This document shows positions 190 to 54,395 of a stretch of 64,000 nt of DNA, piece after piece. A program made the translations under genes and the position numbers. This DNA is from Candidatus Magasanikbacteria bacterium RIFCSPHIGHO2_01_FULL_33_34. GTDB lineage: Bacteria; Patescibacteriota; Patescibacteriia; Magasanikbacterales; UBA922. Below the pieces are notes generated by a model that saw only the letters and a list, made by a program, of their open reading frames with translations, was not told the origin of the DNA and did not search any database. The stretch lies in the NCBI GenBank assembly GCA_001782825.1, contig MFPS01000003.1:44353-108352 (forward strand). Reading direction: 5' to 3'. The first letter of the stretch is position 1. Each line of letters starts with the position of its first letter.

Positions 190-215
190 GCCAAAAATGT
201 TATAATTTAGATTAA

Positions 216-330
216 ATATAATTGGAATTATTATTCGCTCCCTGCCTGCCGGTAGGCAGGATTCTCGCTTTGGCTCCGAGGATGATGCTTATTGTAGCAT
301 CAAATCCGCTCATAATAATTCCAATTATAT
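216..330 (+). repeat. Nested-palindrome intergenic repeat, short variant with an extra inserted hairpin (copy a)
   Basis: The outer stem is ataattggaattattatt / aataataattccaattat. The core is gattctcgctttggctccgagg plus the hairpin gatgct-tattgt-agcatc. An inserted hairpin cctgcc...ggcagg lies at 241-260. Confidence 0.8.
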
Positions 331-365
331 TTAATATTACACATAGTTTAAATAGTTTATTATAT

Positions 366-773: not shown

Positions 774-787
774 TATAAAGATATAAA

Positions 788-925
788 ATATAATAGCGTT
801 ATTTATACTTTTAATCATGACCGTATCAATTTGTTTATTTATTTTTACTCCCTGCCTGCCGGCAGACAGGATTCTCGCCTGCGGGCTCCGAGGTGTCGCC
901 TGTTGTGGCAACAAATCCGTAAAAA
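788..925 (+). repeat. Nested-palindrome intergenic repeat, long-type 5' module plus core with inserted hairpin (copy b)
   Basis: The 5' module is ataatagcgttatttatactttt... The core is ctccctgcctgccggcagacaggattctcgcctgcgggctccgagg plus the hairpin gtcgcc-tgttgt-ggcaac, then aaatccgtaaaaa. Confidence 0.75.
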
Positions 926-997
926 GAATACTTACCAAATAAATTAATAAAAAATCAAAACAAATATGTTTAGGTGTTTAAATATTTAAATGTTTAT

Positions 998-1999
998 ATG
1001 CAAATATTAGTATGTGGTGGTGCTGGTTTTATGGGCTCGCACTTTATAAAATATATATTAGAAAAATATCCAGATTACATGCTGGTAAATTTTGATAAAC
1101 TCACTTATGCGGGCAATTTGGAAAATTTGAAAGAAGTAGAAAATAATAAAAGATATAAATTTGTAAAAGGGGATATTTGTGATGCATCTGAAGTTGATAG
1201 AGTAGTCAGAGAAAATAAAATTGATACAATAGTAAATTATGCAGCAGAGACCCATGTTGATCGATCGGTTATGGACCCGTCTGCATTTTTGAAGACTAAT
1301 ATTTTTGGTTCATATAATTTATTAGAGGCGACAAAAAAATTTGATCTAAAAAAAATGGTTCAAGTTTCAACTGATGAAGTATTTGGAAGTATTGATAGTG
1401 GAAAGTTTCGTGAAGATTCACCATTTGAACCAAATAGTCCATATTCGGCTGCAAAGGCTGGTGGAGATTTGCTTTGCCGTTCGTATTTTGTTACTTTTCA
1501 AACGCCAGTGGTAGTGACACATAGTTGTAATTTTTATGGTTCAAATCAATATCCAGAAAAATTAATACCACTTTTTGTCACAAATTTGTTGGAAGGCAAA
1601 AAAGTACCGGTATATGGTGATGGTAAGCAGGTGCGTGAATGGATATATACGGAAGATCATTGTAATGCAATTGATGTGATTTTACATAAAGCAAAAGCTG
1701 GTAGTGTTTATAATATTGGATCAGGAGATGAAATTGAAAATATAGAAATTACAAAATTAATTTTGGAATATTTGGGTTATGATGAAAAAATGATAGAGTA
1801 TGTAAAAGATAGGCCAGGGCATGATAAACGTTATGCGCTTGATGCCAATAAATTAAAAAATGAATTAGGTTGGGAAGCAAAAGTTAATTTTAGAGATGGG
1901 TTGAAAAAAACCGTTGATTGGTATAGAGAAAATGAAGATTGGTGGAAAAAAATAAAAGATGGCAGTTATTTAGAATATTATAAAAAACAGTATAATTAA
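998..1999 (+). CDS. rfbB: dTDP-glucose 4,6-dehydratase
   Basis: MQILVCGGAGFMGSHF is a Rossmann GxxGxxG motif. YSAAKAGGD is the YxxxK catalytic motif. SDR-extended family features are conserved throughout. Confidence 0.88.
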   Translation: MQILVCGGAGFMGSHFIKYILEKYPDYMLVNFDKLTYAGNLENLKEVENNKRYKFVKGDICDASEVDRVVRENKIDTIVNYAAETHVDRSVMDPSAFLKTNIFGSYNLLEATKKFDLKKMVQVSTDEVFGSIDSGKFREDSPFEPNSPYSAAKAGGDLLCRSYFVTFQTPVVVTHSCNFYGSNQYPEKLIPLFVTNLLEGKKVPVYGDGKQVREWIYTEDHCNAIDVILHKAKAGSVYNIGSGDEIENIEITKLILEYLGYDEKMIEYVKDRPGHDKRYALDANKLKNELGWEAKVNFRDGLKKTVDWYRENEDWWKKIKDGSYLEYYKKQYN

Positions 2000-2001
2000 T
2001 T

Positions 2002-2089
2002 ATTAAAGATTATTATTTACTCATTCTCGCTGTGGCTCCGAGGTGTTTGCCTGTTGTGGCAAACAAATCCGTTCATAATAATCTTTAAT
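2002..2089 (+). repeat. Nested-palindrome intergenic repeat, short variant (copy c)
   Basis: The outer stem is attaaagattattat / ataataatctttaat. The core is ctcattctcgctgtggctccgagg. The hairpin is gtttgcc-tgttgt-ggcaaac. Confidence 0.85.
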
Positions 2090-2119
2090 AATTAATTTTT
2101 ACTATTCATTAATTAAAAT

Positions 2120-2956: not shown

Positions 2957-2968
2957 TTTATAAATATT

Positions 2969-3739: not shown

Positions 3740-3740
3740 T

Positions 3741-4754: not shown

Positions 4755-4770
4755 AAGTATTATTTAGTAT

Positions 4771-5613: not shown

Positions 5614-5627
5614 GTTTTATTTATAAG

Positions 5628-5797
5628 ATATAATAGCATTATTTATACTTTCAACCACGATTGCATTTTTTTCAATTATTTGTTTTTACTCATTCTCGCT
5701 TTGGCTCCGAGGGTGATGCCTGTTGGGGCATCAAATCCGTAAAAACAAATAATTGAAAATAATGCTTAATTATAAATAACGTTTTCAATTTTTACAC
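5628..5797 (+). repeat. Nested-palindrome intergenic repeat, long variant (copy d, reference copy)
   Basis: The 5' module is ataatagcattatttatactttcaaccacgattgcat. P1 is caattatttgtttttac / gtaaaaacaaataattg. The core is ctcattctcgctttggctccgagg. The hairpin is gatgcc-tgttgg-ggcatc. The 3' module is aataatgcttaattataaataacg. Confidence 0.9.
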
Positions 5798-5804
5798 TTT
5801 ATTT

Positions 5805-6905: not shown

Positions 6906-6909
6906 AAAT

Positions 6910-7944
6910 ATGATAACAAAAGCAATACTTACTGGTGGTGGTAGAGCAACTAGGCTTTATCCGATTACATCAACAATTAATAAGCATTTGTTGCCTTTGG
7001 CAAATAAGCCAATGATTTTTCATGCTATTGAAAAAGTGGTTGATGCGGGTATTAAAGAGATATTTATAAATGTAAATCCTGGGGAGGAAGATTTGCAAAA
7101 ACATATTGGTGATGGTGGGCATTGGGGTGTAAAAATAAAGTTTTTTGAGCAAACTGGTGGTCCACAAGGTATTGCCCATGTGGTAAATGAAGCAAAGAAG
7201 TTTATAGGGGATGATCCTTTTGTTTTTTATTTGTCTGATAATATTTTGTTTGGTGATGTAAAGGAAATGATTGAGGAATTTAATAAGGGCGAACATGATT
7301 GTATGTTGGCTTTGTCTGAAGTTCCAGATCCAAATCGTTTTGGTGTACCAGTTTTTGATAATGTTGGTAATTTGATTGATGTGATAGAAAAACCAGAAGT
7401 AGCACCAAATAATTTTGCTGTGACTGGGATATATTTGTATGGTCCAAAAATATTTTTTGAAGCATTTGATAATATAGAAAAAAGCGCAAGAGGCGAGTAT
7501 GAAATATCAAGTATTCATTCTTACTTTTTAAAAAATAACAAAAAAGTTGGTTATAAAGAGATAACTGGTTGGTGGAAGGATACAGGTAAAACAGAAGATC
7601 TTTTGTTGGCAAATAGATTATTACTTGAAAAAACTAATAATATAATTCAAGTTAGTCCGAGTTGTGTTTATGATGATACAGTTGAATTGATTGCACCAGT
7701 TATAATTGGTGAAAATTGTATTTTGAAGAATTGTAAAATAGGACCATATGTTACTATTGGTCAAGGATCAATTATAAAAAATGCTAATATTGAGGATTCA
7801 ATATTGTTATCTAATGTTGAGATTGATTGTCAAATAACAATATCTGATAGTTTGATTGGCAAGGGGGTTAAGTTTTTGAAGAAAGAAGAAAGAAATAAAA
7901 AACATAAGTTGATAGTAGGAGATAAAACTGTTATTGAATTTTAG
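6910..7944 (+). CDS. Glucose-1-phosphate thymidylyltransferase-like sugar nucleotidyltransferase (RmlA-like N-terminus plus C-terminal left-handed beta-helix)
   Basis: LTGGGRATRLYPITSTINKHLLPLANKPMI matches the RmlA G1P-binding N-terminus. The C-terminus has hexapeptide-like repeats. Confidence 0.75.
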   Translation: MITKAILTGGGRATRLYPITSTINKHLLPLANKPMIFHAIEKVVDAGIKEIFINVNPGEEDLQKHIGDGGHWGVKIKFFEQTGGPQGIAHVVNEAKKFIGDDPFVFYLSDNILFGDVKEMIEEFNKGEHDCMLALSEVPDPNRFGVPVFDNVGNLIDVIEKPEVAPNNFAVTGIYLYGPKIFFEAFDNIEKSARGEYEISSIHSYFLKNNKKVGYKEITGWWKDTGKTEDLLLANRLLLEKTNNIIQVSPSCVYDDTVELIAPVIIGENCILKNCKIGPYVTIGQGSIIKNANIEDSILLSNVEIDCQITISDSLIGKGVKFLKKEERNKKHKLIVGDKTVIEF

Positions 7945-7952
7945 TTTATTAG

Positions 7953-9287
7953 TTAATAATTCAATTCATATAACCCAGTTTTATCTCCAACTTTTCCAAA
8001 AAAGTAAATTCTATTTTCTCTTTTATATACACTAGCATTATAAACTTCACCATTATATAGATTTTGATTTACATAATAACCTGGGTTGAATGATTCAATA
8101 CCATGATTGTTAACAATAGCCAAAGCACCGACATCATCAAGTGGAAATACAAATTTAATATTGTCACTAGTTCTATTTAGTAGTGCTGGTTTATCATGTT
8201 CATATATAGACCATAATTCCCATGCAGACCAAGTTAGCCACTCGTTGGTGGATGTATTTCTGTGAAAATTGAGAGTATGAATTGCTTCTTGTTTGTTTTG
8301 TTCTCTGGAAATAATTAATACTTCAGTATCAGTTTGTAATATTGCCCGATAATTATTTATATCAATAATTTTTTTAATTCCTAATGGATTGGGAATAGAA
8401 ATTTTATCTTGTGAATCATTACTATTTTTAACTATTAAGTTATCTTTTTCTAGAATCCAGAATTTTTCTAAGTCATCAATATACCATATTGTCGTAGAAC
8501 TGAGATTAAACATCTGTTCACTGGTATTGGTGGTCAATCTAAAAATTTTGTTATTTTCATCTATAAAAATAGTTGGAATTGGAGAATTTTTTTGCCATTG
8601 ATAATGCAATACTTTTTCTTTGTCGATTAGAACTTCATAATTTGTTATTGTATCTGTATTATCTGCATTTAAAATACTGATTGATGCGATATTTTTTTCA
8701 AATTTAGTAAATAAAATATAATTATTAAATGGCGACCATTCTAATTGATATTTTGTATTTTCTGGTAATTTGAAAAGTGGAGAAAATTCTTCTGATTGTG
8801 AATCAAATAGTTCAATATTTGTAGTTTTGTTTTTTGTAGAAGATAATAAAATAAATCTTCCATCAGTTGATGGTAAAAAAGAATCAATATTATTTTTTGT
8901 ATTGTCTATTGCTGTAGGTAGTGAGTCTTTTAGTAAGTTTATGTTTTTTATGTAAGTTGTTTGTTTACTTTTTACATCTATATTTTTTTCCCATGTTTTA
9001 TATCCGGGTAATGAAATTTTTAGATTATATGTACCGGGGGTTCTGTTGGTTAGTCTGATTGGTATTTTTTTTGTTATCTTTATATCATTTAGATATACTT
9101 CTGCTTCTTTTGGTTTTATATCTATACTAATAACTCCGGTCTCAATAATTTTTTTATTTTCTATATCAAGACGATAACCCATGGAATAAAGTATTAATAA
9201 AGGTGTGATAGTAAAAAAAATCGAAACTAAAAAAAACAAAAAAATACTTCTAAATTTTTTGTCATTGTAGGTATTTGATTGCCTCAT
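7953..9287 (-). CDS. Hypothetical membrane-anchored protein with a PEGA-like domain
   Basis: It has an N-terminal TM helix. IDIKPKEAEVYLNDIKI...PGTYNLKISLPGYKTW resembles a PEGA domain. Confidence 0.5.
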   Translation of the reverse strand: MRQSNTYNDKKFRSIFLFFLVSIFFTITPLLILYSMGYRLDIENKKIIETGVISIDIKPKEAEVYLNDIKITKKIPIRLTNRTPGTYNLKISLPGYKTWEKNIDVKSKQTTYIKNINLLKDSLPTAIDNTKNNIDSFLPSTDGRFILLSSTKNKTTNIELFDSQSEEFSPLFKLPENTKYQLEWSPFNNYILFTKFEKNIASISILNADNTDTITNYEVLIDKEKVLHYQWQKNSPIPTIFIDENNKIFRLTTNTSEQMFNLSSTTIWYIDDLEKFWILEKDNLIVKNSNDSQDKISIPNPLGIKKIIDINNYRAILQTDTEVLIISREQNKQEAIHTLNFHRNTSTNEWLTWSAWELWSIYEHDKPALLNRTSDNIKFVFPLDDVGALAIVNNHGIESFNPGYYVNQNLYNGEVYNASVYKRENRIYFFGKVGDKTGLYELNY

Positions 9288-9355
9288 AATCAGAAATAAT
9301 TTGATTAAATTGCTAAATTTAGCTTAAAATAGCAGTATTGTATTTTTCATTATGT

Positions 9356-9384
9356 TACGCTATAATAGTAGCGTCTTTTTTATA
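9356..9384 (+). other. Hairpin (acgcta-taatag-tagcgt) followed by a T-run, in a divergent intergenic region
   Basis: The sequence shows a 6-bp stem followed by cttttttat. It lies between a minus-strand and a plus-strand gene. Confidence 0.3.
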
Positions 9385-9443
9385 AAAAATCAACTATATT
9401 TGGTATTGATATATTTTTATATAGTTTGTATTAAAATATTAAA

Positions 9444-10754
9444 ATGTTTAATAATACATTTGTTATAAATGGTGGAAAAAAATTAAAAGGAACTATTGAA
9501 ACTAGTTCTGGAAAAAATGCACCGATTGCTTTATTATGTGCATCTGTTTTGGTTAAAAATAAAGTCATTTTAAAAGATATGTCTCATGTTGAGGAGATTG
9601 ACAGGATGATTGAGGTTTTGGTCAGTATAGGTGTGGACATCAAATGGCTGGATAAGACTTCATTGTATATTGATAGCTCAAAGGATTTAACAATGGATAA
9701 AATCAATAAAGAAGCTTGCGCAAGTACTAGAGTATCTCTTTTGTTATTAGGCGCTTTAGCTTCAAGAGAAAAAGATTATAAATTGTATAAAACTGGCGGT
9801 TGCAAATTGGGGGAGAGAACTATTAGGCCACATCTCTATGCACTTGAAAAATTTGGTGTAAGAGTTGAGTCTAAGTCAAAATATTATGAAGTAAAAAATT
9901 CATCACTTCAAGCACAAGATATAGTAATGTATGAATCAGGGGATACTGCAACTGAGAATGCTATTATGGCTGCTATTTTTGCACCGGGTGTTTCTACTAT
10001 TAAGTTTGCATCAGCCAATTATATGGTTCAGGATTTGTGTTATTTTTTGAATACTGCTGGCGCAAAGATTGAGGGGATTGGCACAACAACATTAGTGATC
10101 ACAGGTGTCAAAAAATTACATAAAGTAGATGAATATTTTGTTATTCCAGATCCGGTTGATGCAATGGCATGGATTTCACTTGCTATTACCACAAAATCTT
10201 TGCTTACCATTAAAAATTGCGCATATGATTTTTTGGCTCTTGAATTGGAAAATTTATCAGTGATGGGTCAAAAATATCTTTTATTAAACAAAAGAAAATC
10301 AAAAAGTGGAAATTTTCTTATTTATGATATTAAAATAACCCCATCTGATTTAAAAGCTCTTCCAGATAAATTACATGGACGACCATATCCAGGATTGAAT
10401 ATAGATAATGTACCATTGTTTGTGCCAATACTTACTCAAGCCAAAGGTGAGACTTTGATTCATGATTGGGTTTATGAAAATAGAGCAATTTACTATTTGG
10501 AATTAAAAAAATTAGGTGCAGATATTTTATTACTTGATCCACATAGAGCCTTGATCAAAGGTGTGGTTGAACTCAAAGCAAATGAGGTTGTTTGTCCTCC
10601 AGCTATTAGACCGGGTATGGCTATATTAATCGCTATGTTAGGTGCCAAAGGTAAATCAGTATTGAAAAATGCTTACCCGATTGAAAGAGCTTATGATAAT
10701 TTAGTGGAAAGATTGCGTAGCATAGGGGCTGATATATCCAAAGTTAATAATTAA
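9444..10754 (+). CDS. murA: UDP-N-acetylglucosamine 1-carboxyvinyltransferase
   Basis: It has the EPSP-synthase/MurA fold. FVINGGKKLKGTIETSSGKNAPIALLCASVL is the MurA N-terminal signature. Confidence 0.85.
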   Translation: MFNNTFVINGGKKLKGTIETSSGKNAPIALLCASVLVKNKVILKDMSHVEEIDRMIEVLVSIGVDIKWLDKTSLYIDSSKDLTMDKINKEACASTRVSLLLLGALASREKDYKLYKTGGCKLGERTIRPHLYALEKFGVRVESKSKYYEVKNSSLQAQDIVMYESGDTATENAIMAAIFAPGVSTIKFASANYMVQDLCYFLNTAGAKIEGIGTTTLVITGVKKLHKVDEYFVIPDPVDAMAWISLAITTKSLLTIKNCAYDFLALELENLSVMGQKYLLLNKRKSKSGNFLIYDIKITPSDLKALPDKLHGRPYPGLNIDNVPLFVPILTQAKGETLIHDWVYENRAIYYLELKKLGADILLLDPHRALIKGVVELKANEVVCPPAIRPGMAILIAMLGAKGKSVLKNAYPIERAYDNLVERLRSIGADISKVNN

Positions 10755-10760
10755 TAATAT

Positions 10761-12062
10761 ATGAATTTAGATATTAATAATACTCCAATACAAAAAAATA
10801 AAAAAAATAGATTAATGTATATTTTTTTAAGTTTATTTTTTTTAATAGTAGCTTTTTTTGGTGGGGTTGTGGTGGGGTCAACTTCAATTGTAAAAAATGA
10901 AATATTTAATGATGGTGGTGAGGTGAATATTAGTAAGATAATAAATTTATACAGTAAAACAAGATCTGAAGAAGTTAGTTTTGATCAATATTGGGAAGTT
11001 TGGAATAAGATTAAAAAGGGTTATGTTGATCAGCCAGTAGATGATGTAGATTTGTTTTATGGTTCAATCGTTGGTATGGTGGCATCGCTTGATGATCCAC
11101 ATTCAGTGTATTTTCCACCAAAGGAAGCCAAGGAATTTTCTAAAGATTTGGCTGGAGAGTTTGAGGGGATTGGTGCTGAGATTGGTATTCGTGATAATCA
11201 ACTTACAATTATTGCTCCTTTGCCAGGTTCACCAGCAGAAAACGCTGGTTTGAAGCCCCGTGACAAAGTATTAGCGATAGATGGCGAAGACACATCTTCT
11301 ATGAAACTTGATTTTGCTGTATCAAAAATCAGAGGTCCAAGGAATTCTGAAGTTACTTTAACCATAACTCATAATGGTTATGAAACTGTAGAAGACGTAG
11401 TTATAAAAAGAGACAAAATAAATGTTCCTACTATTGAATCAAAAATTGTAGAAGATACTAATATTGCTTATTTGAGAATAAGTTATTTTAATCAAGATAC
11501 ATGGTTTGATTTTGACAAAGCTGTGCGTGAATTACTCAAAGAATCTCCAAAAGGTTTTGTATTGGATTTGAGGAGTAATCCGGGTGGATTTTTGGAAACT
11601 TCTATTGATGTAGCAAGTGAATGGATAAAACAAGGTATTATTGTTAGTGAAAAAAATGGTAAAGATATTGTATTGGAACACAAGAGTAGAGGGTCTCATA
11701 GATTGGCTGGATTGCCAACTGTGGTTTTGGTTGATGAAGGCACAGCATCAGGATCTGAAATTGTAGCGGGTGCATTACAGGATTATGGTGTTGCCAAGAT
11801 TGTGGGTATGCAAACATATGGCAAAGGATCTGTACAAGATTTTGAAGTATTATTTGATGGTTCAGGCTTAAAATTGACTATAGCAAAATGGTTTACACCA
11901 AAAGATAGGGCGATTGATGGTCAAGGAATTGAGCCAGATATAATTTTAGAAGAAATGTTTTCCCCTATTTATTCAGAAGTTGAAAATGCTGATGGGGAGT
12001 TTGATATAGTTGATGTTGATGATATAGGACTAAAAAAGGCTCTTGATATTTTAGATATTTAG
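10761..12062 (+). CDS. Carboxyl-terminal processing protease (S41, PDZ-containing)
   Basis: It has an N-terminal TM helix, a PDZ region (APLPGSPAENAGL) and the S41 motif LRSNPGGFLE. Confidence 0.8.
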   Translation: MNLDINNTPIQKNKKNRLMYIFLSLFFLIVAFFGGVVVGSTSIVKNEIFNDGGEVNISKIINLYSKTRSEEVSFDQYWEVWNKIKKGYVDQPVDDVDLFYGSIVGMVASLDDPHSVYFPPKEAKEFSKDLAGEFEGIGAEIGIRDNQLTIIAPLPGSPAENAGLKPRDKVLAIDGEDTSSMKLDFAVSKIRGPRNSEVTLTITHNGYETVEDVVIKRDKINVPTIESKIVEDTNIAYLRISYFNQDTWFDFDKAVRELLKESPKGFVLDLRSNPGGFLETSIDVASEWIKQGIIVSEKNGKDIVLEHKSRGSHRLAGLPTVVLVDEGTASGSEIVAGALQDYGVAKIVGMQTYGKGSVQDFEVLFDGSGLKLTIAKWFTPKDRAIDGQGIEPDIILEEMFSPIYSEVENADGEFDIVDVDDIGLKKALDILDI

Positions 12063-12064
12063 TT

Positions 12065-12430
12065 ATGGCAGAGTATTCGGTATCAGGAATTGTCGTAAAA
12101 GGAGATGGGTTAGCTAAAAATTTTGGTTATCCAACTGCGAATTTAGATATAAGTTTGGATAAGTTTGATTTAGCATCTGGTGTATATGCTTGTATTGCAT
12201 ATCTTGAAAACATTCAATATAATGCTGTTGCTATAATTAAAAGGAATGAAAGTAAATTTGAAGTACATTTGATTGGGTACGATGGATTAGATTTTTATAT
12301 GAAACAGGTGTCAATTAATTTACTTAGTAAAGTTAGTGATATTGAAAAGAAAGATGGGCAAGAATTGATTGATAAAATAGAAAGTGATATGAAAAAGGTA
12401 TTTGATTATTTTAGTCGTAAGATACAATAG
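12065..12430 (+). CDS. Riboflavin kinase (monofunctional, RibF C-terminal-domain-like)
   Basis: GIVVKGDGLAKNFGYPTANL and EVHLIGYDGLDFY match the riboflavin kinase domain. Confidence 0.7.
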   Translation: MAEYSVSGIVVKGDGLAKNFGYPTANLDISLDKFDLASGVYACIAYLENIQYNAVAIIKRNESKFEVHLIGYDGLDFYMKQVSINLLSKVSDIEKKDGQELIDKIESDMKKVFDYFSRKIQ

Positions 12431-12575
12431 CATTATTTATACTTTCAACTACGATCGCATTAATTACAATTATTTGTTTTTACTCATTCTCGCTGTGGCT
12501 CTGAGGTGATGCCTGTTGTGGCATCAAATCCGTAAAAACAAATAATTGTAATTAATGCTTTAAATTTTTACATTT
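12421..12575 (+). repeat. Nested-palindrome intergenic repeat, long variant (copy e)
   Basis: The 5' module overlaps the stop codon at 12428-12430. P1, the core ctcattctcgctgtggctctgagg, the hairpin gatgcc-tgttgt-ggcatc and the 3' module are all present. Confidence 0.9.
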
Positions 12576-12594
12576 TAATTTATAAGTAGTAGTT

Positions 12595-13170
12595 ATGTTT
12601 ACAGGAATAATAAAATCTATTGGGGAGATAAATAAAATTAATGAAAAAGAACAAGGAATTGAACTTGTAATTGCTTTTGATGTTAATCAAAGTATTTCAA
12701 TAGGATCGAGTGTATGTATTTGTGGAGTTTGTTTGACTGTTACGGATTTGAAAGATAATCTTTTTAGTTTTGATGTAATGCCTGAGACTATAAGAAAAAC
12801 AACTCTTAATTTTAAACAGATTGGGTCTAAAGTAAATATTGAGATGGTTCTTCGAGTTGGTGATGAACTAGGTGGTCATTTTGTATATGGTCATATTGAT
12901 GGTATTGGTAAGGTTGTGTCAATTAAAAATGAGGGTGATAATAAGCTTGTAGAATTTGAGGTTGATAATGATATTATGAAATATATAGTACCACAAGGAT
13001 CTGTCGCTGTTGATGGTGTAAGTTTGACTGTTGCTAGGCTTGGTAGTAATACTTTTACAGTGTCTTTGATTCCCTTTACGCTTGAGAATACAACATTGGG
13101 AGAGTTGAGAGTGGGAGAAAAAGTAAATATTGAATCAGATATGCTTGCTAAATTTGCTAACAAAAGTTAA
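12595..13170 (+). CDS. ribE: Riboflavin synthase alpha subunit
   Basis: MFTGII... shows two lumazine-binding repeats. Confidence 0.85.
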   Translation: MFTGIIKSIGEINKINEKEQGIELVIAFDVNQSISIGSSVCICGVCLTVTDLKDNLFSFDVMPETIRKTTLNFKQIGSKVNIEMVLRVGDELGGHFVYGHIDGIGKVVSIKNEGDNKLVEFEVDNDIMKYIVPQGSVAVDGVSLTVARLGSNTFTVSLIPFTLENTTLGELRVGEKVNIESDMLAKFANKS

Positions 13171-13212
13171 TTTATAGAATTCACTTCATTAATTATTTAT
13201 AAAATAAAGTTT

Positions 13213-13707
13213 ATGTTAGAAGATATTAAATTGAAAAAAGAGGATGGGAGTAGTTTAAAGATTGGTATTGTTTGTGCTAGATGGCATAGTGATATTTGTA
13301 ATGTATTATTGACGCGTTGTAAACAAGCATTGTTGGATTGTGCTGTTAGTGAGGAAAATATTTTGGTAGCTGATGTGCCTGGATCTTATGAAGTTGTTTA
13401 TGGGGCAAGTCAATTGATAAAAAATGAAGGAGTGGATGCTGTTGTTTGTATTGGAACATTGGTAAAAGGAGAGACAATGCATTTTGAATATATTGCTGAG
13501 GCCGTTACTCATGGTATTATGGATTTAAATTTAAATACAAATGTTCCAGTAATTTTTGGTATACTTACATGTTTGAATTTGGACCAAGCCAAAGAAAGGG
13601 CAGGGGATAAAATGGATCATGGTTATCATTGGGGACTTTCGGCTGTTGAGATGGCAAACTTCAAAATAAATGAACAAGAAAAGATTGAAAAACCAGAAAG
13701 AATATAA
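13213..13707 (+). CDS. ribH: 6,7-dimethyl-8-ribityllumazine synthase
   Basis: KIGIVCARWHSDI...VVCIGTLVKGETMHFEYI is typical of RibH. Confidence 0.85.
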   Translation: MLEDIKLKKEDGSSLKIGIVCARWHSDICNVLLTRCKQALLDCAVSEENILVADVPGSYEVVYGASQLIKNEGVDAVVCIGTLVKGETMHFEYIAEAVTHGIMDLNLNTNVPVIFGILTCLNLDQAKERAGDKMDHGYHWGLSAVEMANFKINEQEKIEKPERI

Positions 13708-13765
13708 TTTTTTTAAAATCTGTGCTATAATATAATTATACAAATTTTAATAGTTTAATTATTGT

Positions 13766-14755
13766 ATGGTTAAAAGACCTGTCAAGAAAGAAAAAAATGA
13801 AAATTCTTTTTTAAGAATTTTGGGCGCTGCTTTTTTTGGTTTTTTACTTGGTTCTATTAGTAGAATCATTGTTAGTTTTTCAACACCAAATATTTTGATG
13901 AGAATAAATGATACTAGTTTTGACGAGGCTCGTTTACTTGCTTCATCATCTTTTTTGTCAAATATGGTTGTTGGGGCATTTATAATATTTTTTACTTCGG
14001 CTGTAGCAGGATTTTTGGCTAAAAGAAGAGGTGTTTTGGTTGGTTTGTTATCAAATTTATTACCAATAGGATTTTGGTTATTAGCTTTTTTGTATGCATT
14101 GATGGCAGGGGCTCATCCTATTAGGCTTATATTTTCAATTCCATTTTTACAATTTGTAATTGTGGTAGTAACCTGTATTTTTGGTGGTTTGTATGGTGAA
14201 GCATATTACAAAAAAGAAAGAGATTTGGATTTGGATAAACATGGTTCTACTATTTTTGGGGTATATTGGGCTCATTATTTGTGGATTACGCCATTTGTAT
14301 TTTTTCCATTTGTATCAGCTGTATTAGCTATTATTTATTCATGGTTATATACTTTTTCAACTGATTTATATTTTATTTCAAATTTTAAATTGTGGATAAG
14401 TTTAGCTTGGTGGTTTTACTTTTTTATAAATCCTTTGATTATACTTGGTTCTGGTATTATAGTTGTAATTGCATTTCAAAAATTTTGGCAAGTTATGCAA
14501 TTTAGACAAACTTATTATGATACATGGGAGAAAGGTGGAAAAATTTTGTTGTATGGTATTGCAACGCCTGTAATTGTGAAATTGATTGTGACTTTCACTA
14601 TTAACTCAACCAAGAATATGTCCCATTCAGTCATTGGTGATTGGAAGCTTATCATGTTTATATTGGTAATCCCTGTTATTGGCATCCTTTTAAAAGGACT
14701 TTGGTGGTTGAAAGATAGTCTTACTGTCGGTGTGGTTGAGAAAAAAATTAAATAA
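13766..14755 (+). CDS. Hypothetical polytopic membrane protein
   Basis: It has multiple hydrophobic helices and no motif I recognise. Confidence 0.5.
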   Translation: MVKRPVKKEKNENSFLRILGAAFFGFLLGSISRIIVSFSTPNILMRINDTSFDEARLLASSSFLSNMVVGAFIIFFTSAVAGFLAKRRGVLVGLLSNLLPIGFWLLAFLYALMAGAHPIRLIFSIPFLQFVIVVVTCIFGGLYGEAYYKKERDLDLDKHGSTIFGVYWAHYLWITPFVFFPFVSAVLAIIYSWLYTFSTDLYFISNFKLWISLAWWFYFFINPLIILGSGIIVVIAFQKFWQVMQFRQTYYDTWEKGGKILLYGIATPVIVKLIVTFTINSTKNMSHSVIGDWKLIMFILVIPVIGILLKGLWWLKDSLTVGVVEKKIK

Positions 14756-14930
14756 TTATTTAAAATATTTGATTATACATGTTATTTACAAATAGCATTT
14801 TTTGTGTTATATTTTGGATGAATTTCAAACCAAAAGGGAAATCAACATCATGAGGAAGCCATAGCTGATTCTTGCTCTGTCAACATTAGTTTTTTGTGGA
14901 TGTGATGCATCATTTATACAATACGTACTG

Positions 14931-15176
14931 GTGATAGCTTTCATTATTGGGATGTTTGTATTTTGTTTAGAATTTGAAAAAACTGGTGTTGTAATATTTT
15001 GTGTTGTTGCCTACCTTATGATAAAGGATGGTACATGTAAAAGTCTATTTCGTGATCCTGACAAGGCTCACCAAGAATATCAAGATAGACGTTATGAGGA
15101 GTTGAAGTCAGATCCTCATTATGAGTATTTGCGAGAACATTTTCGCAGAAAAGGTTACGATGTTGACAAACCCTAA
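14931..15176 (+). CDS. Small hypothetical protein (hydrophobic N-terminus, charged C-terminus)
   Basis: The ORF starts at a GTG in the track. An alternative ATG lies at 14952. A hairpin terminator follows it. Confidence 0.4.
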   Translation: MIAFIIGMFVFCLEFEKTGVVIFCVVAYLMIKDGTCKSLFRDPDKAHQEYQDRRYEELKSDPHYEYLREHFRRKGYDVDKP

Positions 15177-15194
15177 TTGTTTGGAGGCAAAACA

Positions 15195-15227
15195 AAAACC
15201 CAGATTACATTCGTGTGATCTGGGTTT
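15195..15227. terminator. Bidirectional rho-independent terminator hairpin
   Basis: The stems are aaacccagat ... atctgggttt, flanked by A/T runs, between convergent genes. Confidence 0.7.
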
Positions 15228-15243
15228 GTCTAATTTGGATAAA

Positions 15244-15996
15244 TTATTTTAATATTTTTTGGATTGCTTCTTTGACTTTTTCAGAAAAACTTCCATTTAA
15301 AATCCACAATAGATAGCTTTTTTCTTTTTGAGCCAGTTCTTTTAGACTTCTACCTCTATTTTTTCCGAAATTTATTGTAAGTTCACCATCTATATATCTT
15401 AATTTTCCTTCCATATCATATTTGTCTGGGTCTTCTGGAAAACAAAAAGTATGTATTTCATCTACTGATGTTGGAAGATCATTATACATTTTCATTTGTC
15501 CTTCAAGCACGTCAATTGATGCTTTGATATCAGCAATAGCATTGTGGGCATTTTCAAATTCTCCGCCAACATATTTTTTGTATGCTGCTGCTAGAGTGCG
15601 TGGTTCTTTGAGTTTGAAAATAAGCATAGCATCTACTATTTTTCTATCCTCTACATCAAAAGGTAGTTCTATTCTACTAAATTCATTTTGGAGCATTGGT
15701 ATGTCAAAATAGCGAATATTATAACCACCTAAATCTGAATCAAGAAATAGTTGAGTTAGGTCTTGGGCAATATCTCCAAAAGTAGGTTTGTCTTTAACCA
15801 TTTCATTGGTTATGCCATGAATTTCCATTGCTTCGTCTGTAATCGGTATTTTGGGGTTTATTAGCCATTCATGTTCTGTTTTGCTACCATCTGGAAAATA
15901 TTTGATAGCGCCAATCTGAATAATCCTATCTTCAAATACATTGAGACCAGTGGCCTCTAGGTCAAAAAATACAATTGGTTTTATTATTTTTAGCAT
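15244..15996 (-). CDS. DEDD-family 3'-5' exonuclease (DnaQ/oligoribonuclease-like)
   Basis: VFFDLEATGL, IIQIGAI and ...HNAIADI are the Exo I-III motifs. Confidence 0.75.
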   Translation of the reverse strand: MLKIIKPIVFFDLEATGLNVFEDRIIQIGAIKYFPDGSKTEHEWLINPKIPITDEAMEIHGITNEMVKDKPTFGDIAQDLTQLFLDSDLGGYNIRYFDIPMLQNEFSRIELPFDVEDRKIVDAMLIFKLKEPRTLAAAYKKYVGGEFENAHNAIADIKASIDVLEGQMKMYNDLPTSVDEIHTFCFPEDPDKYDMEGKLRYIDGELTINFGKNRGRSLKELAQKEKSYLLWILNGSFSEKVKEAIQKILK

Positions 15997-16028
15997 AATT
16001 ATTATTTTAGAAGTAGTGTAAATTAATA

Positions 16029-16116
16029 ATTAGAGATTATTATTTGCTCATTCTCGCTTTAGCTCCGAGGAGGTTGCCGGTTGGGGCAACCTGATCCGCT
16101 CATAATAATCTCTAAT
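16029..16116 (+). repeat. Nested-palindrome intergenic repeat, short variant (copy f)
   Basis: The outer stem is attagagattattat / ataataatctctaat. The core is ctcattctcgctttagctccgagg. The hairpin is ggttgcc-ggttgg-ggcaacc. Confidence 0.85.
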
Positions 16117-16143
16117 TATTAATTCTATTTTAGATTATAAATT

Positions 16144-16313
16144 AATTTGTAAAATACAATAGCATTGTTTATACTTTTAACCATGACCGCATCAATTTCA
16201 ATTATTTGTTTTTACTCATTCTCGCCTCGGCTCCGAGGGTGATACCTGTTGGGGTATCAAATCCGTAAAAACAAATAATTGAAATTAATGCTTGCTTATA
16301 AACAATGTTTTTA
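16144..16313 (+). repeat. Nested-palindrome intergenic repeat, long variant (copy g)
   Basis: The 5' module has cattGtttat and the 3' module has ataaaCaatg, a compensatory pair relative to the other copies. The hairpin is gatacc-tgttgg-ggtatc. Confidence 0.9.
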
Positions 16314-16345
16314 ATTATTACAATTAATTTATACTACTCATCATT

Positions 16346-17194
16346 TTATATTCGTTCTATCCAATGTTTATCAACAAATACTTCTAATTCTAAGAATATT
16401 TTTCTATTGGTTGCTTGTTCTAGTTCTTTGCGGGCCATTTGGCCTATTTCTTTTATTTTGTGTCCTTTTTGTCCAATAATTATTTTTTTATATCTTTCTT
16501 CATTGGTCAAAATTCTGGCAGTGATTACGGTTATATCTTTTTTTTCTTCAACATTATCTACTTCAACATTTATTGAATAAGGGACTTCTTTGTCAAAGAT
16601 TGAAAAAACTTTTTCACGGATAATTTCAGCAATCCAAAAGTGATGGTCAAGATTTGTGAGTTGTTCGTTTGGATACATTTCTTCTCCTTCTGGCATATAT
16701 TCCATTACTTTATTTCGCAATGGTTGGATATGACTTGCTCGAAGAGCTGAGAGTTGAAACATTTGATCAAAATTTTCTTCCCAACTTTCGTATTCGTCTT
16801 GATGTTTTCTTTTTTCTGGTGGTAAGTCGCTTTTGTTTATGACTAAAAGTTTTGGGATATCAAGATGTCTTATCATACCATATGAAGCTTTTTCTTCGTC
16901 ACCTATTTCACGAGTTGGGTCAACTACATAAATAATGAGGTTGACGCCTTCTAGAGATTCTTTAACTTTGTTAGTTAATTTGGCTGTTAAGGGATTTTTT
17001 CTGTCTTTGAATACGCCTGGAGTATCTATAAAGACTGCTTGACCAGTGGGTGTATTCATTACACCGTGGATAAGGTGTCTAGTCATTTGCGCCCGAAAAC
17101 TAGTGGCAGCGATTTTGGTGCCGACCAAAGTATTCATCAAAGTAGATTTTCCAACATTGCTTCGCCCTATAATGACTACAAAGCCTGATTTCAT
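16346..17194 (-). CDS. era: GTPase Era
   Basis: The G1 motif is GRSNVGKST. A C-terminal KH domain is present and the length is typical. Confidence 0.88.
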   Translation of the reverse strand: MKSGFVVIIGRSNVGKSTLMNTLVGTKIAATSFRAQMTRHLIHGVMNTPTGQAVFIDTPGVFKDRKNPLTAKLTNKVKESLEGVNLIIYVVDPTREIGDEEKASYGMIRHLDIPKLLVINKSDLPPEKRKHQDEYESWEENFDQMFQLSALRASHIQPLRNKVMEYMPEGEEMYPNEQLTNLDHHFWIAEIIREKVFSIFDKEVPYSINVEVDNVEEKKDITVITARILTNEERYKKIIIGQKGHKIKEIGQMARKELEQATNRKIFLELEVFVDKHWIERI

Positions 17195-17261
17195 AGTATT
17201 TGTTATTATATTAAATAATTCTAGCAGAGATTAATAATAAAATCAATTATATAAAATGAAG

Positions 17262-23335: not shown

Positions 23336-23350
23336 ACTGTAAAGTGTAAT

Positions 23351-23389
23351 AAAACAAAAACAACTCAAATAGTGAGCTGTTTTTGTTTT
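23351..23389. terminator. Bidirectional terminator hairpin between rpoD and the SOD-like gene
   Basis: aaaacaaaaacaactc ... gagctgtttttgtttt. Confidence 0.6.
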
Positions 23390-23425
23390 ATTGGGTATTT
23401 AAATACCAAATTAAATACTAATTTT

Positions 23426-31054: not shown

Positions 31055-31063
31055 TATAAAATA

Positions 31064-31096
31064 AAAAATTCCCGATTTTACGGGAATTTTTTATTT
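31064..31096 (+). terminator. Rho-independent terminator
   Basis: aaaaattcccg-atttta-cgggaattttttatttt. Confidence 0.75.
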
Positions 31097-31109
31097 TATA
31101 GAATAAATA

Positions 31110-49457: not shown

Positions 49458-49532
49458 ATAGTTTAATACGTTTTTTATATTGTAGCATAGTTTTTGTGAG
49501 AAAAAAAGCTGTTTTTTTATTATGTATTTATA

Positions 49533-49724
49533 GATTATATTAGTATTGTCTATATTTTTAATTATGATTGTACTAATTTTAATTATTTGTTTTTACTCTC
49601 TGCCTGTCGGCAGGCAGAATTATCGTTTTGGCTCCGAGGTGATTGCCTGTTGTGGCAATCAAATCCGTAAAAATAAATAATTGGAACTAATGCTTAATTA
49701 TAAATAATGTTTTTATTTTTTACA
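49533..49724 (+). repeat. Nested-palindrome intergenic repeat, long variant with an inserted hairpin (copy h)
   Basis: A divergent 5' module precedes P1. The inserted hairpin is ctgcctg-tcgg-caggcag. The core is cgttttggctccgagg. The hairpin is gattgcc-tgttgt-ggcaatc. The 3' module follows. Confidence 0.85.
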
Positions 49725-53459: not shown

Positions 53460-54305
53460 ATGTTATTAGATACTCATTGTCATTTACAGTTCAAAGGATT
53501 TGATGAAGATAGGGGAGATGTTATAAAACGCATTGCAGAAAAAGGCGTTGTTTTGAATATTGTTGGCACGCAAAAAAATACTAGTAAGTTGGCAGTTGAA
53601 TTGGCAGAAAAATATGAAAATTTTTATGCATCAATCGGTACTCATCCGGTCCATTTGTTTCCTAGTCATATAGATGAAGAAGAATCTAGTTTTAAATCTC
53701 GTGAAGAAGATTTTGATGAAGAATATTATGGTGAATTGGTCAAATCAAAGAAAGTGATTGCTATTGGGGAGACTGGACTAGAATTATATCATTTGCCCAA
53801 AGACAAAACAGTTGAAGAAGTTTTGAAAAAACAAAAAGAGGTGTTTGTGGCCCATATTAATTTTGCAAAAAAACATGATTTGCCATTGGTGATACATTGT
53901 CGTGAAGCGCATGAAGAAATGGCAAATTTATTGGAAAGTTTTGGTAGAAATATAAGGGGCACAATGCATTGTTTTACAGGCAATTGGGAACAAGCACAAA
54001 AATATTTGAAATTAGGATTGTATTTGGGTTTTACTGGTGTAGTTACTTTTCCACCCAAAAAAACCAATCCTCAACAACAAATTGATTTGCTGGAGGTTTT
54101 GGAGCGGGCTCCACTGGATAGAATAGTCGTAGAAACTGACTCGCCATATCTTGCTCCGCAAATTTGTCGGGGTAAACGATGTGAACCGTGGATGGTAGAG
54201 GAAGTTGTAAAAAAATTGGCAGAAATAAGAAAAATGGAGTATAAGGAAGTAGAGGATCAGGTGGCAAAAAATACCTTGGCTTTGTTTACTAGAATTAATG
54301 CTTAA
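53460..54305 (+). CDS. tatD: TatD-family metal-dependent hydrolase
   Basis: The N-terminus is MLLDTHCHL. Conserved H/E/D metal ligands are present. Confidence 0.85.
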   Translation: MLLDTHCHLQFKGFDEDRGDVIKRIAEKGVVLNIVGTQKNTSKLAVELAEKYENFYASIGTHPVHLFPSHIDEEESSFKSREEDFDEEYYGELVKSKKVIAIGETGLELYHLPKDKTVEEVLKKQKEVFVAHINFAKKHDLPLVIHCREAHEEMANLLESFGRNIRGTMHCFTGNWEQAQKYLKLGLYLGFTGVVTFPPKKTNPQQQIDLLEVLERAPLDRIVVETDSPYLAPQICRGKRCEPWMVEEVVKKLAEIRKMEYKEVEDQVAKNTLALFTRINA

Positions 54306-54316
54306 TTATAAATAGC
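54294..54316 (+). repeat. Fragment of the repeat 3' module (attaatgcttaattataaatag) overlapping the tatD stop codon
   Basis: It matches the 3' modules of copies d and h. Confidence 0.5.
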
Positions 54317-54351
54317 ACTTTTAATTCTCACGAATAAATTTAAAAATGAGT

Positions 54352-54380: not shown

Positions 54381-54395
54381 GAGGCATTTCATATT

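What the first reader, a model, noticed from the sequence alone, without database searches (positions are those of the whole stretch)
16029..16313. Tandem short plus long repeat copies in one spacer, antisense to both flanking genes
A short copy (f) and a long copy (g) lie head-to-tail, 27 nt apart. They sit between the start of the exonuclease gene (15996, minus) and the end of era (16346, minus). Both repeats are in plus orientation, so they are antisense to local transcription. That is unexpected if they were simple 3'-UTR terminators.
Basis: seen in the sequence. Interest (0 to 1): 0.5.

Follow-up and report, generated by a model that had tools for sequence, protein, structure and literature searches.

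The report
Nested miniature transposons between two genes
The two repeats are small non-coding mobile elements (MITEs), one inserted into the end of the other in what was once a gap of about 10 bases between era and an exonuclease gene of a groundwater Magasanikbacteria (CPR) genome. They are ordinary in kind, but the family has an unusually conserved folded core and almost always points the way the replication fork travels.

Summary
A "short" (S) and a "long" (L) copy of one repeat family lie in plus orientation between the exonuclease gene (15244-15996, minus) and era (16346-17194, minus).

They are miniature inverted-repeat transposable elements, not RNA genes or terminators.
- L (16149-16321) has GTAA...TTAC terminal inverted repeats and a perfect 9-bp target duplication.
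- L sits inside the right terminal repeat of S (16010-16148 plus 16331-16339). S has its own 8/9 duplication, which includes the era stop codon.
- Removing both elements leaves a spacer of about 10 nt. A relative has 11 bp there.
- Other relatives carry an unrelated hairpin element at this site. Filled and empty orthologous sites were found for four other copies.

The antisense orientation follows a family-wide rule. Of 18 distinct copies, 17 lie on the G-rich (leading) strand, including 5 of the 6 copies that sit between lagging-strand genes.

Two stems covary. A 29-nt unpaired core is identical between organisms whose stems differ, and this is unexplained.

There is no Rfam, plasmid, phage or literature match. 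Verdict: a new member of a known kind, of modest interest.

The parts
16001..16009 (.). Left target-site duplication of the short (S) element, ATTATTTTA. Its last three bases (TTA) would have been the ancestral era stop codon.
   Evidence: Matches 16340-16348 (ATCATTTTA) at 8 of 9 positions, directly outside the S terminal inverted repeats.
16010..16148 (+). Short (S-type) MITE, left and central part. Left TIR GAAGTAGTGTAAATTAA (16010-16026). Perfect 23-bp stem 16021-16043 / 16102-16124. GC-rich core 16044-16101. Right subterminal segment 16125-16139. First half of the right TIR 16140-16148.
   Evidence: Inverted repeats I2 and I4. CM hit 16037-16108, E 1e-18. Aligns over its whole length to the full-length S copy in L065, once L is removed.
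16140..16148 (.). Left target-site duplication of the long (L) element, AATTAATTT. It lies within the right TIR of S.
   Evidence: Identical 9-mer at 16322-16330. This 9-mer is nearly palindromic. The direct-repeat reading rests on the family-wide TSD test and on the non-palindromic 9/9 case in L056.
16149..16321 (+). Long (L-type) MITE, 173 bp. Left TIR GTAAAATACAATAGCATTGTTTATAC (16149-16174). Asymmetric bubble 16175-16188. Inner stem 16189-16215 / 16265-16291. Core 16216-16264. Right TIR 16294-16321, ending in TTAC.
   Evidence: CM hit 16205-16275, E 1e-17. 87% identical to the copy at 5616-5806.
16322..16330 (.). Right target-site duplication of L, AATTAATTT.
16331..16339 (+). Distal half of the right TIR of S (ATACTACTC), separated from the rest of S by the L insertion.
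   Evidence: Pairs with 16010-16018 (I2). Aligns with ACACTATTC at the right end of the L065 copy.
16340..16348 (.). Right target-site duplication of S, ATCATTTTA. Bases 16346-16348 are the present era stop codon (TAA on the minus strand).
15244..15996 (-). Flanking gene: RNase_T / ExoX-like exonuclease. Its start codon lies 4 nt from the S duplication.
   Evidence: Pfam PF00929, E 4.6e-27.
16346..17194 (-). Flanking gene: GTPase Era.
   Evidence: Pfam MMR_HSR1 + KH_2. Homologues are named GTPase Era, Candidatus Magasanikbacteria.
211..335 (+). Family copy: S-type with an extra 20-nt GC palindrome (241-260).
783..945 (+). Family copy: L-type with the GC palindrome. The right half is degenerate.
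1994..2097 (+). Family copy: S-type.
5623..5795 (+). Family copy: L-type. TSD 5614-5622 / 5796-5804 matches at 7 of 9. The orthologous spacer is 15 bp in relative L058.
12417..12571 (+). Family copy: L-type. TSD 12408-12416 / 12572-12580 matches at 7 of 9. Its left TIR supplies the stop codon of the flavokinase ORF that ends at 12430.
49530..49723 (+). Family copy: L-type with the GC palindrome. It lies between two minus-strand genes and is antisense to both, like the copies in the finding.
54292..54331 (+). Remnant: right half of an L-type element. A further S-type left-arm remnant lies at 54394-54414.
17235..17250 (-). Empty target site. It holds a single AATTGATTT where the relative L056 carries an L-type copy flanked by two copies of that 9-mer.

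Best explanation
The 349-bp era-exonuclease spacer was built by two successive insertions of non-autonomous transposons (MITEs) of one family.

Shown:
1. An S-type element (about 148 bp) inserted at the junction of the era stop codon and the exonuclease start. It duplicated 9 bp that include the stop codon.
2. An L-type element (173 bp, GTAA...TTAC ends) later inserted into the right terminal inverted repeat of S. It duplicated AATTAATTT.
3. Taking out both elements and one copy of each duplication leaves a spacer of about 10 nt. A related genome has an 11-bp spacer there.
4. The family is mobile. It has terminal inverted repeats, 9-bp target duplications at AT-rich targets (roughly AATTNATTT), and filled versus empty orthologous sites.
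5. Copies are oriented with the G-rich (leading) strand whatever the direction of the neighbouring genes. That is why this pair is antisense to era and the exonuclease.

Inferred:
6. The elements are moved in trans by a DDE transposase that makes 9-bp staggered cuts. GTAA termini with an 8-9 bp duplication fit the IS66 family best.
7. The orientation bias comes from coupling of insertion to the replisome, as reported for several IS families including IS66.
8. The invariant, asymmetric 29-nt core, held in a covarying hairpin, is a cis-acting recognition module for the mobilising machinery or some other factor. The long perfect arms are kept paired either by selection for folding of a single strand or by template-switch 'perfecting' of quasi-palindromes.

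The confidence given (0.8) applies to steps 1-5. Steps 6-8 are each well below that, roughly 0.3-0.4.
For: Nested structure:
- Inverted repeats 16010-16027 / 16323-16341 enclose everything (I2).
- With L and one duplication removed, the window sequence aligns end to end with a full-length S copy from another locus (L065). The alignment runs across the point where L sits.
- S duplication: ATTATTTTA / ATCATTTTA (8/9). L duplication: AATTAATTT twice (9/9).

Target duplications across the family:
- For 10 L-type copies, the 9-mers flanking the GTAA...TTAC termini match at 6.8 of 9 on average. The local null is 2.98 +/- 1.39 (P<1e-5).
- Two cases are perfect. One of them, L056 AATTGATTT, is not palindromic.

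Empty sites:
- The window has a single AATTGATTT where L056 has the insertion.
- era-exo spacer: 11 bp in L057.
- GT2-GT2 spacer: 15 bp in L058 against 192 bp in the window.
- grpE-hsp20-dnaK spacers: 4-77 bp in L063/L064 against 169-192 bp in the 45%-GC organism.

Copy number and distribution:
- 8 intact copies and 2 remnants in the window.
- 18 distinct copies across four or five Magasanikbacteria populations.
- None in the relatives L057, L058, L059, L063 or L068.

Orientation:
- 17 of 18 copies lie on the G-rich strand.
- 5 of the 6 copies between lagging-strand genes are antisense to those genes.

Precedents:
- IS66-family ends start with GTAA and make an 8-bp duplication (PMC12898284, PMC12888890).
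- IS families show replication-linked orientation bias. IS66a leans to the leading strand, and its proteins carry beta-clamp-binding motifs (PMC3971601).
- Small bacterial repeats are known to cluster and to insert into one another (PMC10969869).

Structure:
- 96.6% of cells pair, against 41-48% with slid partners. 13 of 23 pairs show changes on both sides.
- The unpaired core is 29/29 identical between a window copy and the 45%-GC organism. The stems are only 55-71% identical.
Against: - No autonomous element or transposase with matching ends was found. There is none in the 64-kb window or in about 16 kb of adjoining sequence. The IS66 assignment therefore rests on four terminal bases and the length of the duplication.
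- S-type and L-type ends differ (GAAGTAGTG... against GTAAAAT...). One transposase may not serve both.
- Target duplications are clear for L-type copies but weak for three S-type copies.
- A DDE cut-and-paste mechanism acts on double-stranded DNA. It does not explain why the internal stems covary, or why the core is better conserved than the terminal repeats.
- About 82% of genes in the window lie on the plus strand. A unit with only a gene-like strand preference would give at least 17 of 18 with P of about 0.14. Replisome coupling is therefore not demonstrated.
- One copy (L056) lies on the lagging strand.
Confidence: 0.8

Rival explanations
1. The repeats are genes for a structured small RNA, or carry one as cargo. 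It would be transcribed from the plus strand from a promoter in the left arm. The conserved core would be the functional part, for example a protein-binding junction or a small ribozyme.
For: - Two helices covary and the unpaired core is invariant across organisms.
- A TTGTAA-17-TATACT motif lies in the left arm of L-type copies.
- The leading-strand preference is compatible with that of ordinary genes (P about 0.14).
Against: - No Rfam family matches, even at E<=10.
- Promoter-like hits are at background level. They sit in inverted repeats, so they are mirrored on the minus strand.
- S-type copies lack that arm.
- There is no terminator.
- Both strands fold equally well, with no excess of G-U pairs on the plus strand.
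- Helix H1 has no covariation, and RNAalifold prefers a different core fold.
- Copies are absent from close relatives and come with target duplications. The units are therefore transposon insertions whatever else they do.
Confidence: 0.1
2. They are REP/REPIN-like or IS200/IS605-derived hairpin elements. An HUH tyrosine transposase would move them as folded single-stranded DNA on the lagging-strand template.
For: - Long hairpins with compensated differences between copies.
- Strand asymmetry and a bias to the strand that is single-stranded as lagging-strand template. IS608 is the published precedent (PMC3971601).
Against: - 9-bp target-site duplications and terminal inverted repeats are present. 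From my own knowledge, such elements make neither.
- There is no GTAG/CGTC tag and no conserved tetranucleotide 5' of the element.
- No Y1 transposase is present in the window or its flanks.
Confidence: 0.04
3. They are host regulatory hairpins: bidirectional terminators, RNase III processing sites or mRNA stabilisers kept by selection between cistrons.
For: - Very stable hairpins on either strand, -43 to -65 kcal/mol.
- Many copies lie inside operons in sense orientation: hrcA-grpE-hsp20-dnaK, suf and rml/glycosyltransferase clusters.
- Correia elements are cut by RNase III (PMC10969869).
Against: - Orthologous spacers in relatives are 4-77 bp and lack the elements, so no conserved host need exists.
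- There is no T-run.
- A hairpin role would not need the asymmetric core or a fixed orientation.
- Such effects are best seen as possible side-effects of insertion, not the reason the elements exist.
Confidence: 0.04
4. The core is a polar chromosomal signal, comparable to Chi or to FtsK-orienting sequences. It would have been co-opted by the host and kept co-oriented with replication by selection.
For: - 17 of 18 copies lie on the leading strand.
- The invariant asymmetric core is G-rich on that strand.
- An AddB/UvrD-type nuclease-helicase is encoded nearby.
Against: - Copies are clustered: 7 in 16 kb, then none for 33 kb.
- The family is missing from close relatives. A chromosome-wide signal would not be distributed this way.
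- Known polar signals are 5-8 nt, not 60-nt structured modules (own knowledge).
Confidence: 0.02

Closest known systems
Correia / NEMIS elements of Neisseria (the archetypal bacterial MITE)
   Same: Both are short, non-coding, multicopy intergenic elements with terminal inverted repeats and target duplications. Both come in longer and shorter forms and fold into long hairpins when transcribed. Correia elements can carry promoter-like sequences and protein-binding sites and are cut by RNase III (PMC10969869).
   Different: From my own knowledge, Correia elements duplicate TA; here the duplication is 9 bp. Correia elements have no invariant asymmetric GC-rich core set in a covarying hairpin. No replication-strand orientation bias is reported for them. 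The host here is a CPR bacterium.
IS66-family insertion sequences, including the ISBst12 group
   Same: Termini begin with GTAA and the target duplication is 8-9 bp (PMC12898284, PMC12888890). IS66a tends towards leading-strand orientation and has beta-clamp-binding motifs (PMC3971601).
   Different: No transposase gene is present and no cognate IS was found. Only the L-type ends fit. S-type ends begin with GAAGTAGTG. Beyond the first four bases the terminal repeats show no similarity to the published IS66 ends.
REPINs / REP sequences mobilised by RAYT transposases
   Same: Both are hairpin-forming intergenic repeats whose arms stay complementary through compensated changes (PMC3116915 is listed; the rest is from my own knowledge). 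Both need a trans-acting enzyme encoded elsewhere.
   Different: The elements here have terminal inverted repeats and 9-bp duplications. They lack a GTAG/CGTC tag, are three to five times longer than a REP, and have no RAYT gene nearby.
Pneumococcal BOX / RUP / SPRITE repeat clusters
   Same: Small repeats found bunched together in intergenic DNA, with elements inserting into one another (PMC10969869). That is the arrangement seen at 16010-16339.
   Different: The sequences and hosts are unrelated. Those families do not share a common conserved core between types.
bcr1-type repeats of the Bacillus cereus group (own knowledge, not checked here)
   Same: They are MITE-like repeats with AT-rich target duplications. 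A conserved predicted single-strand structure is supported by compensatory changes.
   Different: The sequence, target (TTTAT) and host are different. I did not verify these points with the tools.

Membership tests
MITE (non-autonomous DDE-type transposable element) | Terminal inverted repeats | tested here: met
   L-type: GTAAAATACAATAGCATTGTTTATAC / ...TTAC. S-type: GAAGTAGTGTAAATTAA / TTAATTTATACTACTC, and a perfect 16-nt pair in the L065 copy.
MITE (non-autonomous DDE-type transposable element) | Target-site duplication flanking the repeats | tested here: met
   9-bp duplications match at a mean of 6.8/9 against a null of 2.98 (P<1e-5), with two perfect cases. S copy in the finding: 8/9.
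MITE (non-autonomous DDE-type transposable element) | Small, without coding capacity, in many dispersed copies | tested here: met
   About 148 and 173 bp. Mini-ORFs are not conserved between copies (sequence inspection). 8 copies plus 2 remnants in 64 kb, and 18 distinct copies overall.
MITE (non-autonomous DDE-type transposable element) | Presence/absence at orthologous sites (evidence of mobility) | tested here: met
   Five sites compared, each filled in one genome and empty in a relative.
MITE (non-autonomous DDE-type transposable element) | A cognate autonomous IS with the same ends in the same or related genomes | not testable with these tools
   No transposase in the window or flanks.
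IS66-family derivative | Ends beginning GTAA with an 8-9 bp duplication | tested here: inconclusive
   L-type ends are GTAA, GTTA or ATAA, with a 9-bp duplication. This fits. However, only four bases are shared and the S-type ends differ.
IS66-family derivative | An IS66-type TnpC transposase that recognises these ends | not tested
   No candidate gene in any sequence held.
REP / REPIN-RAYT | 20-40 nt GC-rich palindromes with a GTAG or CGTC tag, no terminal repeats or duplications, and a RAYT gene | tested here: not met
   TIRs and TSDs are present. The tag is absent. No Y1 transposase in the window.
IS200/IS605-type (PATE) single-strand elements | Subterminal hairpins, no terminal inverted repeats, no duplication, insertion 3' of a fixed tetra- or pentanucleotide | tested here: not met
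Any described RNA family (Rfam 15) | Covariance-model match | tested here: not met
   No hit at gathering threshold in the window or in six related loci. Only junk hits at E<=10 in 15950-16400.
Intrinsic terminator | GC-rich stem followed immediately by a T-run | tested here: not met
   None in 15997-16345 on either strand.
Integron attC site | R''(RYYYAAC)...R'(GTTRRRY) core sites in that order, cassette genes, an integrase | tested here: not met
   The ends read GTAA...TTAC in the wrong order on both strands. The neighbours are housekeeping genes.

The most novel reading that the evidence does not exclude
The invariant, strand-asymmetric core (CTCATTCTCGC-N4-GCTCCGAGG ... AAATCCG) is held in a covarying hairpin. 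Two element types with different terminal repeats share it, and so do Magasanikbacteria of 32% and 45% GC. It could be a functional single-stranded module in its own right that uses MITEs as vehicles. It might be a new structured RNA, such as a protein-binding junction or a small ribozyme. Or it might be a folded-DNA site that ties the element to the replication fork and so sets its orientation.
Probability: 0.2. Interest if true: 0.6.

Novelty: new member of a known kind. Interest (0 to 1): 0.3.

Why it matters
- The result explains the finding. The whole 349-bp spacer, and the puzzling antisense orientation, follow from two dated transposition events and a family-wide orientation rule.
- It documents an active MITE family in a streamlined CPR genome. 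I found no description of such elements in the literature searched.
- Insertions sit at a stop codon or start codon junction, inside heat-shock, suf and cell-envelope operons, and at gene ends where they supply stop codons. They probably alter expression in organisms that cannot be cultured.
- The family gives a clean natural test of replication-coupled transposition. The prediction is that orientation flips at the origin and terminus.
- The core is conserved more strongly than the transposon ends, which is unusual. It deserves a biochemical look.

Tried and rejected
- Genome-collection scan with a core pattern. It returned only 40 single chance hits in GC-rich genomes and none in CPR genomes.
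- Viral contig scan: 0 hits. BLAST against plasmids gave nothing. BLAST against phages gave one AT-rich chance match.
- Rfam, at gathering threshold and at E<=10: nothing meaningful.
- Known folds compared by eye and rejected: hammerhead, twister, pistol and SRP-Alu-like. The junction lengths and conserved residues do not fit. This was not a formal test beyond Rfam.
- Integron attC, REP/RAYT and IS200/IS605 models: rejected on end structure and on the duplications.
- 'The core is a mobile unit that targets hairpin loops'. Rejected because the arms never occur without the core in the window.
- Mini-ORFs in the core and left arm are not conserved between copies.
- G-U asymmetry as a test of RNA against DNA: uninformative (31 against 20 G-U pairs, equal energies).
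- An own promoter: the TTGTAA-17-TATACT motif is not above background and is mirrored in the right repeat.
- My first model was two adjacent, independent insertions, with a perfect 9/9 repeat TATTTTAGA (16003-16011 / 16126-16134) as the S duplication. I withdrew it when the full-length S copy in L065 showed that the right-hand TATTTTAGA lies inside the element. It also showed that L is nested in the S terminal repeat.
- A literature search for the core strings found nothing.

Full report
**1. What is there**

The window is AT-rich (about 32% GC). Its GC skew is positive throughout and the cumulative skew rises monotonically. About 82% of called genes lie on the plus strand. The plus strand is therefore the leading strand across all 64 kb.

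Proteins identical to the window's Era occur on Rifle-aquifer contigs and in GCA_001784315.1. The closest named homologues are from Candidatus Magasanikbacteria, in the CPR/Patescibacteria.

The interval 15997-16345 lies between an RNase_T exonuclease gene (15244-15996, minus) and era (16346-17194, minus).

It holds two copies of a repeat that shares a GC-rich core in otherwise AT-rich DNA:
- One copy has a perfect 23-bp stem, 16021-16043 / 16102-16124.
- The other has nested stems, 16189-16220 / 16260-16291 and 16140-16173 / 16297-16330.
- The core is asymmetric, so orientation can be read. Both copies are on plus.

**2. The family**

- The motif GCTCCGAGG (up to 1 mismatch) occurs 8 times in the window, all on plus, against 1.4 expected.
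- A covariance model built from six copies finds all eight. It finds none in 5.9 kb to the left or 10 kb to the right of the window.
- Seven copies lie in the first 16.3 kb and one lies at 49.6 kb.
- Two fragments lie at 54292-54331 and 54394-54414.
- A metagenome scan recovered the same core in a 45%-GC organism. Its DnaK places it in Magasanikbacteria as well.
- Further copies turned up in a relative with 91% identical Era (L056) and in a 33%-GC Magasanikbacteria contig (L064/L065).
- Relatives at 78-88% protein identity had none in 12-21 kb each (L057, L058, L059, L063, L068).
- There is no match in Rfam, in plasmids or phages, in viral contigs or in the literature.

**3. They are transposon insertions**

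L-type copies end in inverted repeats that begin with GTAA (variants GTTA, ATAA) and finish with TTAC.

The 9-mers just outside these ends are direct repeats. Over ten copies they match at 6.8 of 9 positions, against 2.98 +/- 1.39 for other 9-mers in the same flanks (P<1e-5). Perfect cases are AATTGATTT in L056 and AATTAATTT at the L copy of this finding.

The L056 insertion has a true empty site. At the orthologous place upstream of era, the window has a single AATTGATTT (17235-17250, minus strand).

Other filled and empty pairs:

| Site | With element | Without element |
|---|---|---|
| Glycosyltransferase spacer | 192 bp (window) | 15 bp (L058) |
| grpE-hsp20 and hsp20-dnaK spacers | 192 and 169 bp (45%-GC organism) | 4-77 bp (L063, L064) |
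| era-exonuclease spacer | 349 bp (window) | 11 bp (L057) |

In L056 and L058 the era-exonuclease spacer instead holds an unrelated hairpin element with CACC-rich arms. The arrangement is therefore not conserved, and this spacer is a repeated landing place.

**4. The pair is nested, not tandem**

I first read the pair as two adjacent insertions. A perfect repeat TATTTTAGA seemed to flank the short copy.

A full-length S-type copy in L065 changed that. It has a perfect 16-nt terminal pair, GAATAGTGTGAATTAA / TTAATTCACACTATTC. Its right subterminal segment (CTATTTTATATTTATAAATTAATTCACACTATTC) is homologous to window 16125-16148 followed by 16331-16339. The homology runs straight across the place where L sits.

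The structure is therefore:

| Coordinates | Part |
|---|---|
| 16001-16009 | S duplication, left (ATTATTTTA) |
| 16010-16148 | S, left and central part |
| 16140-16148 | L duplication, left (AATTAATTT); lies within S |
| 16149-16321 | L |
| 16322-16330 | L duplication, right |
| 16331-16339 | S, distal end of the right terminal repeat |
| 16340-16348 | S duplication, right (ATCATTTTA; 8/9); includes the era stop codon at 16346-16348 |

Deleting both elements and one copy of each duplication gives a 10-nt gap between the era stop and the exonuclease start. This is essentially the L057 state. S came first. L then landed in the terminal repeat of S, which probably immobilised it. Nesting of small repeats is known from pneumococcal BOX/RUP/SPRITE clusters (PMC10969869).

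**5. Why plus orientation**

Across 18 distinct copies, 17 lie on the G-rich strand.

The informative cases are the six copies between genes that are themselves on the lagging strand:
- window S, window L and the copy at 49530-49723;
- L064 14331 and L064 16784;
- L056.

Five of these are antisense to their neighbours and co-oriented with replication. Only L056 is the reverse.

In L064, minus-strand genes still show slightly positive skew (+0.03, against +0.32 in plus-strand genes). The plus strand is therefore the leading strand there too.

How the rival rules fare:
- 'Sense to local transcription' fails in 5 of 18 copies.
- 'Co-oriented with replication' fails in 1 of 18.
- Against random orientation, P is about 1.4e-4.
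- A unit with only the genome's general 82% leading-strand preference would give at least 17 of 18 with P of about 0.14. Selection of a gene-like kind is therefore not excluded.

There is published precedent. Many IS families have family-specific orientation bias relative to replication. IS66a leans to the leading strand, and transposases of nine families bind the beta sliding clamp (PMC3971601).

GTAA ends with an 8-bp duplication are typical of the IS66 family (PMC12898284, PMC12888890). I therefore propose, as an inference, an IS66-like transposase acting in trans. No such gene was seen in the sequence available.

**6. Structure and the unexplained core**

On 17 copies aligned to the model:
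- 96.6% of cells form standard pairs, against 41-48% when partners are slid.
- 13 of 23 pairs show changes on both sides: 7 of 11 in the closing stem and 6 of 7 in hairpin H2.
- H1 never covaries. RNAalifold prefers a GG/CC closure with an extended H2. The 'three-way junction' is therefore only one possible drawing.

Both strands fold equally well, and G-U pairs are not enriched on the plus strand. Pairing alone cannot tell RNA from single-stranded DNA. Quasi-palindrome template switching could also keep arms perfect without selection (own knowledge).

What does call for an explanation is the unpaired core. It is 29/29 identical between a window copy and the 45%-GC organism, while their stems are 55-71% identical. 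S-type and L-type elements share the core although their terminal repeats differ. A 20-nt GC palindrome (CCTGCCTGCCGGCAGGCAGG) is present at exactly the same core position in five copies. It also occurs in the unrelated L058 element.

A core conserved more strongly than the transposon ends is not typical of MITEs. I take it to be a cis-acting recognition module. That is inference.

**7. Verdict**

- The finding is real, and its puzzle is solved by nested MITE insertions plus a family-wide orientation rule.
- It is a new member of a known kind, in a lineage where such elements have not been described in the literature I could search.
- The conserved core and the orientation bias keep it from being wholly routine.

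Noticed in passing
window 241-260, 851-870, 49599-49618; L064 about 14310-14330; L065 about 4690-4710; L058 era-exo spacer (10850-11044): A 20-nt GC palindrome, CCTGCCTGCCGGCAGGCAGG, sits at exactly the same position (between ACTC and ATTCTCGC) in five copies of both element types. It also occurs inside an unrelated hairpin element in a relative. It behaves like a separate mini-module, or like an old polymorphism of the family.
   Followed up: partly
L056 4573-4725; L058 10850-11044: In two relatives the orthologous era-exonuclease spacer holds a different hairpin element with CACC-rich heptad-like arms (CACCTTACCACCTAATCACC... / ...GGTGGTCAGGTGGTTAGGTG). This spacer is a recurrent landing site for unrelated palindromic repeats.
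   Followed up: partly
window 54292-54331 and 54394-54414: Two fragments of the family lie in one spacer. One is the right half of an L-type element; it supplies the last codons and the stop of the TatD-like ORF that ends at 54305. The other is the left stem arm of an S-type element, just upstream of the ATP synthase operon. Both are in plus orientation.
   Followed up: partly
window 12408-12431: The left terminal repeat of the L-type copy overlaps the 3' end of the flavokinase ORF (12065-12430) and provides its stop codon. The insertion replaced the end of the gene.
   Followed up: partly
window 211-945: The small HIT-family gene (about 366-773) is bracketed by two same-orientation copies, S-type at 211-335 and L-type at 783-945. 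Both are of the variant that carries the GC palindrome.
   Followed up: no
window 1-16400 versus 16400-64000; L060 1-5900; L062 11276-21275: Copies are strongly clustered. Seven lie in 16 kb among cell-envelope sugar and riboflavin genes. Only one lies in the next 58 kb, and none in the adjoining flanks. This suggests local hopping or regional targeting.
   Followed up: partly
L051 about 2250-2470 (minus strand): In the 45%-GC organism one copy and about 70 nt of extra sequence lie between the arms of another inverted repeat (ATGACAGGTTTTATTT... / ...AAATAAAACCTGTCAT). The element seems to have landed inside a pre-existing terminator-like hairpin.
   Followed up: no
window 31055-31100 and 23348-23392: These are perfect or near-perfect 20-bp hairpins with AT-rich stems and short loops, lying between genes. 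They are probably the genome's ordinary bidirectional terminators and look quite unlike the repeat family.
   Followed up: no
window 1-64000: There is no tRNA gene and no Rfam family at gathering threshold in 64 kb. GC skew is unusually strong (up to +0.40). It stays non-negative even across blocks of minus-strand genes (14-18 kb and 44-50 kb).
   Followed up: partly
window 26008-27951: A 647-aa VirD4/TraG-type coupling protein (TrwB_AAD_bind, TraG-D_C) is encoded among housekeeping genes. It is conserved at this position in relatives (L059).
   Followed up: no
L058 1450-1704; L059 10888-11250: Relatives carry small 23S_rRNA_IVP / bAvd-like genes (accessory proteins of diversity-generating retroelements) near this region. 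In L059 one lies directly next to era, where the window has the exonuclease gene.
   Followed up: no
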